Below, piece after piece: positions 7,991-8,805 of a stretch of DNA of 64,000 nt. Source of the DNA: Heptranchias perlo (Eukaryota); the NCBI RefSeq assembly GCF_035084215.1, contig NC_090365.1, forward strand, positions 8,618,001-8,682,000, given 5' to 3'. Position 1 is the first letter of the stretch, and every line of letters begins with the position of its first letter. The notes under the pieces were generated by a model that did not search any database, was not told the DNA's origin, and was given only the letters and a program-made list of their open reading frames with translations. The position numbers and the translations under genes were made by a program.

Positions 7991-8805
7991 ATGTGGAGAT
8001 GCCGGTGATGGACTGGTGTTGACAATTGTAAACAATTTTACAACACCAAGTTATAGTCCAACAAATTTATTTTAAATTCCACAAGCTTTCGGAGGCTTCC
8101 TCCTTCCTCAGGTGAACGGTGTGGAAATGAGATTTTCGAATCCTTTGCATGTGAAAATCACAGAACAATGCCTGGTGATTACTGCCCGTTGCCAAGGCAA
8201 TCACAGTGAGCAGACAGAAAGGTGTCACCTAAAAGGCCACCGAATATACAAACCCCCCCAAAAAAAAGAGAGAGAGAGCAGGAAGACAGTCAATGACCCG
8301 TTATATTAAAAACGGATAACATTTGTTCGCTGGTGGGGTTACGTGTAGTGTGACATGAACCCAAGATCCCGGTTGAGGCCGTCCTCATGGGTGCGGAACT
8401 TGGCTATCAATTTCTGCTCGACGATTTTGCATTGTCGTGTGTCTCGAAGGCCGCCTTGGAGTATGCTTACCCGAAGGTCGGTGGCTGCATGTCCATGACT
8501 GCTGAAGTGTTCCCCGACAGGGAGAGAACCCTCCTGTTTGGCGATTGTTGCGCGGTGTCCGTTCATCCGTTGTTGCAGCGTCTGCATGGTCTCACCAATG
8601 TACCATGCTCTGGGGCATCCTTTCCTGCAACGTATGAGGTAGACAACGTTGGCCGAGTCACAGGAGTATGAACCGTGCACCTGGTGGGTGGTGTCCTCTC
8701 GTGTGATGGTGGTATCTGTGTCGATGATCTGGCATGTCTTGCAGAGGTTACCGTGGCAGGGTTGTGTGGTGTCGTGGACGCTGTTCTCCTGAAAGCTGGG
8801 TAATT
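7991..8805 (-). mobile_element. Penelope-like retroelement, 5'-truncated, GIY-YIG endonuclease end plus 3' terminal region, 13-bp TSD
   Basis: ORF CHGNLCKTC...NVVYLIRCRKGCPRAWYIGET...RMNGHR...GLN; direct repeat TGCTTTGGGGATG at 7978-7990 and 8806-8818. Confidence 0.92.
8078..8116 (-). ncRNA. Minimal type I hammerhead ribozyme motif within the Penelope-like element
   Basis: Minus strand UUCAC-CUGAGGA-A-GGAGG aag CCUCC-GAAA-GCUU-GUGGA: catalytic core, 5-bp stem II, stem I and palindromic AGCU stem III. Confidence 0.75.

What the first reader, a model, noticed from the sequence alone, without database searches (positions are those of the whole stretch)
8078..8116. Minimal hammerhead ribozyme motif in a Penelope-like element
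Seen: the minus strand reads UUCAC CUGAGGA A GGAGG-AAG-CCUCC GAAA GCUU GUGGA. That is the CUGANGA/GAAA core, a perfect 5-bp stem II, stem I UUCAC/GUGGA (one G-U) and a stem III reduced to the palindrome AGCU, with predicted cleavage after CUU and one extra A after A9. Established: Penelope-like elements carry minimal type I hammerheads in their terminal repeats, thought to cleave as dimers via palindromic stem III. Inference: this copy keeps an intact motif that ORF-based annotation would miss. It is antisense to AKT2, so it would not cut the host pre-mRNA.
Basis: partly seen in the sequence, partly recalled or inferred. Interest (0 to 1): 0.7.

Follow-up and report, generated by a model that had tools for sequence, protein, structure and literature searches.

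The report
Hammerhead in shark Penelope retroelement stub
The motif is a real but ordinary tiny self-cutting-RNA (hammerhead) sequence at the end of a cut-short Penelope-type jumping gene, one of more than 80,000 such motifs in this likely shark genome; this lone copy is likely inert, and the ends of its relatives suggest they were copied from uncut RNA.

Summary
Observation confirmed: minus strand 8116-8078 holds the core, extra A, two 5-bp stems and the AGCU palindrome; 0 comparable hits in 100 shuffles. It lies in an 822-bp, 5'-truncated, endonuclease-bearing Penelope-like element (7988-8809, Neptune-type linker, 13-bp target duplication). This is the minimal hammerhead of Cervera and De la Pena 2014, extra A included. 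The genome holds 82,670 exact core matches (control 2); stems covary between subfamilies. Nothing marks this copy out: it has no partner in the window, and stem I is disfavoured in context. Family 5' ends do not favour the predicted cut (13 of 100 over nine positions, sister subfamily) but pile up 2-20 nt before the core (42 of 78, mode at an initiator-like A), so the ribozyme likely sits in the transcript's leader. The scan noted both points before on other DNA, including this genome (1,054 notes on the theme). Cleavage is untested. More surprising, seen in passing: a second, two-ORF Penelope family in 7.7-kb tandem arrays at chromosome ends, joined to TTAGGG repeats.

The parts
7988..8809 (-). 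5'-truncated endonuclease-bearing Penelope-like element (end of ORF + pseudo-LTR), 822 bp
   Evidence: 97-98% identity to the best 39 other copies, 1,212 candidates; relatives run on upstream into the RT, this copy stops at 8809
8339..8809 (-). C-terminal ORF fragment: C-X4-C-X2-C linker, GIY-YIG endonuclease with CCHH, stop codon
   Evidence: Pfam GIY-YIG E=1.4e-4, 22.5 bits against cut-off 22.6; motifs located by script
8078..8116 (-). Minimal type I hammerhead motif; predicted cut between 8083 and 8082 (after CUU)
8124..8130 (-). Initiator-like TCATTTC; its A (8128) is 17 nt before core C3, where short family copies most often end; inferred transcription start
   Evidence: initiator consensus recalled
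8148..8155 (-). Position of the TATA box of sister subfamilies (TATAAATG); degenerate here (TTCACATG; TTCAAATG in most of this subfamily)
7988..8021 (-). About 34-nt 'tail', missing from inverted 5' copies; in intact tandem units of a sister subfamily its end runs into the ATG of the next ORF
7978..7990 (.). Target-site duplication, 13 bp, overlapping the element end by 3 nt
   Evidence: identical to 8806-8818
8806..8818 (.). Target-site duplication, 13 bp, overlapping the truncated 5' end by 4 nt
   Evidence: identical to 7978-7990

Best explanation
This is the minimal hammerhead motif in the terminal repeat of a 5'-truncated Neptune-type Penelope-like element, and in this lone copy it is likely an inert passenger. 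Shown: the motif, the element's ends and target duplication, the family size, covarying stems, and head-to-tail 3,081-bp units of a sister subfamily in which the cut site lies 92 nt before the ATG of an open 902-codon RT-endonuclease frame. Inferred: in active tandem elements transcription likely starts about 17 nt before the core, so the ribozyme sits in the 5' leader; it would fold only when two motifs pair through AGCU or when the element's protein binds, and would then trim or uncap the RNA or release unit-length RNA. Reverse transcription likely starts at the tail near the ATG on uncut RNA: on a monomer it runs off the 5' end and gives about 140-nt stubs, and on a read-through tandem (or circular) RNA it gives long copies such as this one, which passes the cut site and the inferred start and ends 698 nt beyond C3.
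For: Motif and shuffle control. Element anatomy, inverted tail-less copies and target duplication. 82,670 exact matches to core + G10.1-C11.1 + GAAAGCU, reversed control 2. On 20 variants that I chose from 153 harvested copies, 91% of cells pair, 4 of 10 pairs show double changes, covariation 0.273 against 0.190 shuffled (0/500) and at most 0.103 when slid. An unrelated family (33% protein identity) keeps core, extra A and both stems with other sequence and has the palindrome ACGU. Tandem units with open ORFs in L158, L160, L162, L167. 5' ends in this subfamily: of the first 78 listed copies 42 end 2-20 nt before C3, 17 of them at -15 to -17; 5 end inside the motif, 3 at -28 to -58, 28 are longer. 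Genome-wide 958 matches upstream of the pile-up against 3,563 over the motif. No peak at the cut: 13 of 100 listed copies over nine positions. Fits PMC11167929 (internal RT start, protein-assisted cleavage, uncut RNA as substrate).
Against: No cleavage or transcript end was observed; the runs available were contigs only and of uncertain type. The genome patterns fixed the core, so its conservation is partly built in, the 20 aligned variants are related and hand-picked, and two of the five covariation measures were not above shuffles (100/500 and 243/500). The 95 nt behind the motif are as conserved between subfamilies as the motif, so conservation alone does not prove catalysis. This subfamily lacks a good TATA box yet gives as many stubs as a TATA-bearing sister (27% against 23% retain the upstream word), so the start-site reading rests on the initiator-like word and the pile-up; RT stalling or fold-back at the hairpins could also pile ends there. 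The double-hammerhead dimer is not favoured by nearest-neighbour energy (-19.7 against -20.6 kcal/mol). The cut-site test was done on a sister subfamily and tallied by eye.
Confidence: 0.78

Rival explanations
1. The motif is kept as a structural signal (protein binding, RT positioning or pausing) and no longer cleaves in vivo; short copies end in front of it because the RT stalls or folds back at these hairpins, not because the RNA starts there.
For: No excess of 5' ends at the cut; stem I pairing probability at most 0.16 in context; stubs are as common without a TATA box; ribozyme-dead mutants still insert in vitro (PMC11167929); Naiad elements thrive without hammerheads (10.1101/2021.04.23.441226, passages).
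Against: Unpaired catalytic residues and a palindrome that changes AGCU to ACGU are kept in families only 33% alike in protein; the Anolis motif cleaves with protein and shows C3-G8 rescue (PMC11167929); a stall would be expected at the near (3') foot of the hairpin, whereas ends lie beyond it with a sharp limit near -20.
Confidence: 0.15
2. Cleavage and ligation make a circular unit-length RNA that is the main template for long copies, so this copy was read round a circle.
For: Perfect 3,081-bp head-to-tail units with one motif each; long copies cross the cut site; the model is proposed in PMC4209133.
Against: Read-through transcripts of the genomic tandems give the same DNA product; linear cut RNA, the needed intermediate, leaves no clear trace in 5' ends. 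Not separable with the data here.
Confidence: 0.25
3. This particular copy has been co-opted to regulate the AKT2-like gene through an antisense, self-cleaving RNA.
For: It likely lies in the long first intron: a CCAAT-rich, CpG-rich region with a strong donor site lies about 13.7 kb before the window on the + strand and the ATG exon has an acceptor at 41408.
Against: Young insertion (97-98% to other copies), one motif per about 39 kb genome-wide so such a position is expected by chance, degenerate TATA, no partner motif in the window.
Confidence: 0.03
4. The motif is a chance match.
For: No Rfam hammerhead hit.
Against: 0 strict hits in 100 shuffles; fixed position in the pLTR of a known carrier; covariation.
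Confidence: 0.01

Closest known systems
[quoted passage not shown]
   Same: [quoted passage not shown]
   Different: Stem II is 5 bp rather than the 7-8 bp given for Schistosoma; cartilaginous fish are not named in the parts read; 82,670 exact matches against about 4,000 (coelacanth) and 9,000 (Xenopus), though counted by another method.
PAc, Poseidon element of Anolis carolinensis (Frangieh et al. 2024, PMC11167929; parts 1-2 of 4 read)
   Same: pLTR hammerhead at the ORF start, 30-40 nt tail marking two RT start sites downstream of the ribozyme, no sign that cut RNA is the template.
   Different: In PAc the ORF starts inside the ribozyme and the cut is 26 nt after the start codon; here the cut is 92 nt before the ATG. 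This element has the Cys linker that Poseidon lacks.
Neptune clade of endonuclease-positive PLEs (Craig et al. 2021, 10.1101/2021.04.23.441226 and PMC8557442; passages read)
   Same: RT then C-terminal GIY-YIG, CX2-5CxxC linker, CCHH, tandem and inverted pLTRs, tail.
   Different: No RT tree was built, so Nematis is not formally excluded; no microsatellite target at this site.
Animal non-LTR retrozymes (Li, Clavereau and Pollet 2026, 10.64898/2026.07.22.740005; parts 1-3 of 5 read; supplements closed)
   Same: Type I hammerheads derived from PLE pLTRs, reported also in one chondrichthyan; 8 of 9 tested dimers did not cleave in vitro.
   Different: This copy is a single truncated coding element, not a short non-coding tandem repeat.

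Membership tests
PLE minimal hammerhead (min-HHR) | Core CUGANGA and GAAA with a NUH cleavage triplet | tested here: met
   CUGAGGA, GAAA, CUU
PLE minimal hammerhead (min-HHR) | Stem II closed by G10.1-C11.1, with one unpaired nucleotide after position 9 | tested here: met
   GGAGG/CCUCC and A8104; G-C in 20 of 20 aligned variants, partly fixed by the search pattern
PLE minimal hammerhead (min-HHR) | Short stem I (4-5 bp) with covariation among families | tested here: met
   UUCAC/GUGGA; 2 of 5 pairs with double changes, 3 with one-sided changes
PLE minimal hammerhead (min-HHR) | No stem III, palindromic 15-16 region | tested here: met
   AGCU here; ACGU in an unrelated family
PLE minimal hammerhead (min-HHR) | Location in the pLTR of a PLE | tested here: met
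   between ORF stop (8339) and tail
PLE minimal hammerhead (min-HHR) | Self-cleavage as dimer or with protein | not testable with these tools
   needs an RNA assay; genomic 5' ends show no peak at the cut
Canonical type I hammerhead (Rfam models) | Match to a curated covariance model, with stem III and loop-loop contacts | tested here: not met
   no hammerhead family at E<=5; no stem III possible in the monomer
Neptune-type EN+ Penelope-like element | Single ORF, RT followed by GIY-YIG endonuclease | tested here: met
   GIY-YIG in this copy; RVT_1 in longer copies L032 and L160 of the same frame
Neptune-type EN+ Penelope-like element | CX2-5CxxC linker and CCHH motif | tested here: met
Neptune-type EN+ Penelope-like element | Tandem or inverted pLTRs with a 30-40 bp tail on one end | tested here: met
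   in family copies; this copy has a single end with the tail
Neptune-type EN+ Penelope-like element | RT phylogeny placing it with Neptune rather than Nematis | not tested
   no reference RT set on hand
Neptune-type EN+ Penelope-like element | Spliceosomal intron near the pLTR | tested here: inconclusive
   no splice-type joint in contigs laid on L160:4150-5150; contigs of uncertain type cannot show absence
Non-LTR retrozyme | Short non-coding tandem units, each with a hammerhead | tested here: not met
   single copy with an ORF fragment; no second copy in the window

The most novel reading that the evidence does not exclude
The Penelope hammerhead is a gated switch in the first 46 or so bases of the element's capped transcript: unbound, the RNA stays whole and serves as template (the tens of thousands of stubs record its start site); paired with a second copy or bound by the element's protein, it cuts off the cap and leader 92 nt before the AUG, changing the RNA from template to uncapped message or circle precursor. 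The shark genome would then be a large natural map of this choice.
Probability: 0.25. Interest if true: 0.6.

Novelty: new member of a known kind. Interest (0 to 1): 0.25.

Why it matters
The motif itself is a described class and this copy is one of tens of thousands, so it matters little alone. The family matters as test material: it is young, has identical tandem units with open frames, and its copy ends suggest where the RNA starts and that insertion uses uncut RNA, which bears on the open question of what PLE hammerheads do in vivo. The chromosome-end Penelope arrays seen in passing may deserve their own follow-up.

Tried and rejected
Rfam scan: no hammerhead model matches. Cleavage footprint in genomic 5' ends, prompted by one tiny copy starting at the cut (L007): rejected as a strong signal, 100 of 403 matches listed, starts at element positions 722:14, 723:8, 724:1, 725:5, 726:16, 727:6, 728 (cut):13, 729:16, 730:21, tallied by eye, no row dropped (a few are small deletions or repeated duplicates rather than truncations), 9 of 100 listed (697 matches) start at the cut, and a script on its first 30 loci reproduced my by-eye calls (2 of 30); one search was dominated by a 4-nt duplication variant and was not tallied. 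A weak excess (under about two-fold) is not excluded. Idea that 8809 is a fixed family boundary (splice or non-autonomous element): rejected, other copies continue. Idea that the TATA-less subfamily makes fewer stubs: rejected (958/3,563 against 3,801/16,322). Expression: no RNA holder listed; contigs laid on the AKT2 exons gave repeat cover only and on the tandem spacer no splice joint; neither is evidence either way. Dimer energy calculation showed no gain; the model ignores tertiary contacts. One search used a loop one base too long (79 matches) and served only as a source of variants. Chromosome-end family first suspected to be endonuclease-less (Coprina or Athena): rejected, it has GIY-YIG.

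Full report
Observation. A descriptor for type I hammerheads found this single hit on both strands of the window; 100 dinucleotide shuffles gave 0.05 loose hits on average and none with both stems of 5 bp or more. The isolated 39-mer folds into stems I and II. Rfam has no matching hammerhead model at E<=5, which is expected for a motif that lacks stem III.

The element. Upstream on the same strand lies an open frame ending at 8339 with a GIY-YIG domain, a C-X4-C-X2-C linker and a CCHH motif. A DNA search of the own genome (3.25 Gb; 'shark' is my inference from the repeat types and agrees with earlier scan notes, no call names the organism) gave 1,212 candidates, the best 40 scored being this copy and 39 others at 97-98%. 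Homology runs from 8809 to 7988; other copies continue upstream into an RT frame, so 8809 is this copy's own truncation point. A 13-bp duplication flanks the insertion (7978-7990, 8806-8818). Many relatives carry an inverted 5' copy that lacks the last 33-39 nt, the known PLE tail. By the features listed in Craig et al. (passages) this is a Neptune-type endonuclease-positive PLE; no tree was built. A sister subfamily (85% DNA identity over this stretch, 96% protein identity to the window subfamily's L032) forms identical head-to-tail units of 3,081 bp with an open 902-codon frame (L160). There the predicted cut lies 92 nt before the ATG and the tail ends at the ATG.

Abundance and covariation. 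The exact pattern core + A + G-N11-C + GAAAGCU has 82,670 matches, the reversed control 2, about one per 39 kb. In the copies found by DNA search, which did not fix the core, 37 of 40 pieces keep CUGANGA, the three others carry different single changes, and the free position 7 varies in a shared way. From 153 harvested copies I chose 20 variants of equal loop length; 91% of cells pair, 4 of 10 pairs show changes on both sides, covariation score 0.273 against 0.190 for shuffles (0/500) and at most 0.103 for slid structures, while two measures were not above shuffles. The rows are related and hand-picked, so this is support, not a probability. Stronger is an unrelated family (33% protein identity) with the same core and extra A, different stems (7-bp stem I, 5-bp stem II) and the palindrome ACGU with a GUC site.

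What the copy ends say. If cut RNA were copied to its end, copies would start at the base after CUU. In a sister subfamily 13 of 100 listed copies start there, against a mean of 11 over nine positions (by eye; method checked by script on 30 loci). After earlier scan notes suggested a pile-up before the motif, I tested it. In a mixed sample 17 of 32 copies ended within 37 nt of C3, one of them probably only for lack of a reference. For the window's own subfamily I took the first 78 listed matches: 23 also matched the upstream word and were counted as long without fetching; 55 were fetched. Of these, 42 end 2-20 nt before C3, 17 of them at -15 to -17; 5 end inside the motif; 3 at -28 to -58; 5 are long, three of them miscalled by the script because of local changes. 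Position -17 is the A of TCATTTC, an initiator-like word (consensus recalled), 27 nt after the place where sister subfamilies have TATAAA. Against a simple promoter reading, this subfamily has a degenerate TATA yet the same share of stubs as a TATA-bearing sister.

Mechanism. Shown: sequence, family, covariation, position relative to the ATG, distribution of ends. Inferred: transcription likely starts about 17 nt before the core; the RT likely starts at the tail near the ATG, as shown in vitro for the Anolis element (PMC11167929); copying a monomer gives about 140-nt stubs, copying a read-through tandem or circular RNA gives long copies like this one; in both cases the motif copied was uncut or religated. 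Cleavage would need a partner motif or protein: single minimal hammerheads were inactive and dimers weak (PMC4209133), the Anolis motif cut only with protein, and 8 of 9 Xenopus retrozyme dimers did not cut. For this copy there is no second motif in the window, and stem I has a predicted pairing probability of at most 0.16 in its flanks because GUGGA pairs instead with an upstream UUUCCAC or with the tail. It is most likely inert.

Host gene. Exons of an AKT-family kinase lie on the + strand from 41531 to 63463; the PH exon is closest to AKT2, the kinase exon is undecided. A CCAAT- and CpG-rich region with a strong donor site lies about 13.7 kb before the window, so the element is probably in a long first intron, antisense; no RNA joins these exons in the data I could see.

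Novelty. The motif class, the extra A and the palindrome are in print (PMC4209133). Searches listed no paper on shark PLE hammerheads or on copy ends marking a start site in front of them; the library lacks most subscription papers, and supplements of PMC4209133 (not read) and of the 2026 preprint (closed) may hold chondrichthyan examples. PMC6155905 and PMC6431247 were seen as passages only. The scan itself has 1,054 notes on this theme in at least 37 genomes, unreviewed and used here only as leads. Verdict: real, correctly identified, a new member of a known kind; interest 0.25.

Noticed in passing
G000 chromosome ends; loci L174-L181, L184-L197, L204-L209, L211, L213 (for example C4:141.42-141.81 Mb of 141.86 Mb, C1:198.12-198.27 Mb, C5:0.13-0.19 Mb, C9:89.32-89.35 Mb): A second Penelope family with its own minimal hammerhead forms 7.4-8.8 kb head-to-tail arrays near several contig ends (most of the 100 listed of 655 matches). 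Each unit has two ORFs: about 750 aa with a weak GDSL esterase match (E=0.011, below cut-off) and 744 aa RT + GIY-YIG with Cys linker and CCHH. Units are 97-99.9% alike, interleaved with TTAGGG runs, and at the end of C4 a 5'-truncated unit is joined directly to 4.3 kb of telomeric repeat with its 5' end outward (L207:5708). The array at C1:0.93-1.02 Mb points the other way. An endonuclease-bearing PLE specialised for vertebrate telomeres was not listed in searches nor in scan look-ups; likely more interesting than the finding itself.
   Followed up: partly
L158, L160, L162, L167: Young sister subfamily with identical 3,081-bp tandem units and open 902-codon frames, embedded in minisatellite-rich DNA at L158 and L160; suggests recent activity.
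   Followed up: partly
window 8078-8128 and 7990-8000 (minus strand): In this subfamily the 3' strand of stem I (GUGGA) can pair instead with an upstream UUUCCAC or with UCCAC in the tail, the likely RT start region, a possible off-switch; subfamilies with GUGAA pair less well, so it is not clearly conserved.
   Followed up: partly
L128-L155: A variant of the window's subfamily with a 4-nt duplication just after stem I makes up about half of the 100 listed matches, so it spread as its own lineage.
   Followed up: no
L182, L183, L198-L203: Older, more degraded hammerhead-like motifs with an ACG palindrome start and GGG/CCC-type stem II, probably a third PLE family.
   Followed up: no
L169:5800-6300 (about 13.7-14.2 kb before the window): Repeated CCAAT boxes, a CpG-rich stretch and a strong + strand donor site: candidate promoter and non-coding first exon of the AKT2-like gene.
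   Followed up: partly
window 4126-5127 (-): Open 333-aa C-terminal fragment of a LINE reverse transcriptase (Pfam RVT_1), CR1-like by recall.
   Followed up: no
window 47-630: G+C- and CpG-rich low-complexity repeat (CpG ratio above 1.1); minisatellite or CpG island, not resolved.
   Followed up: no
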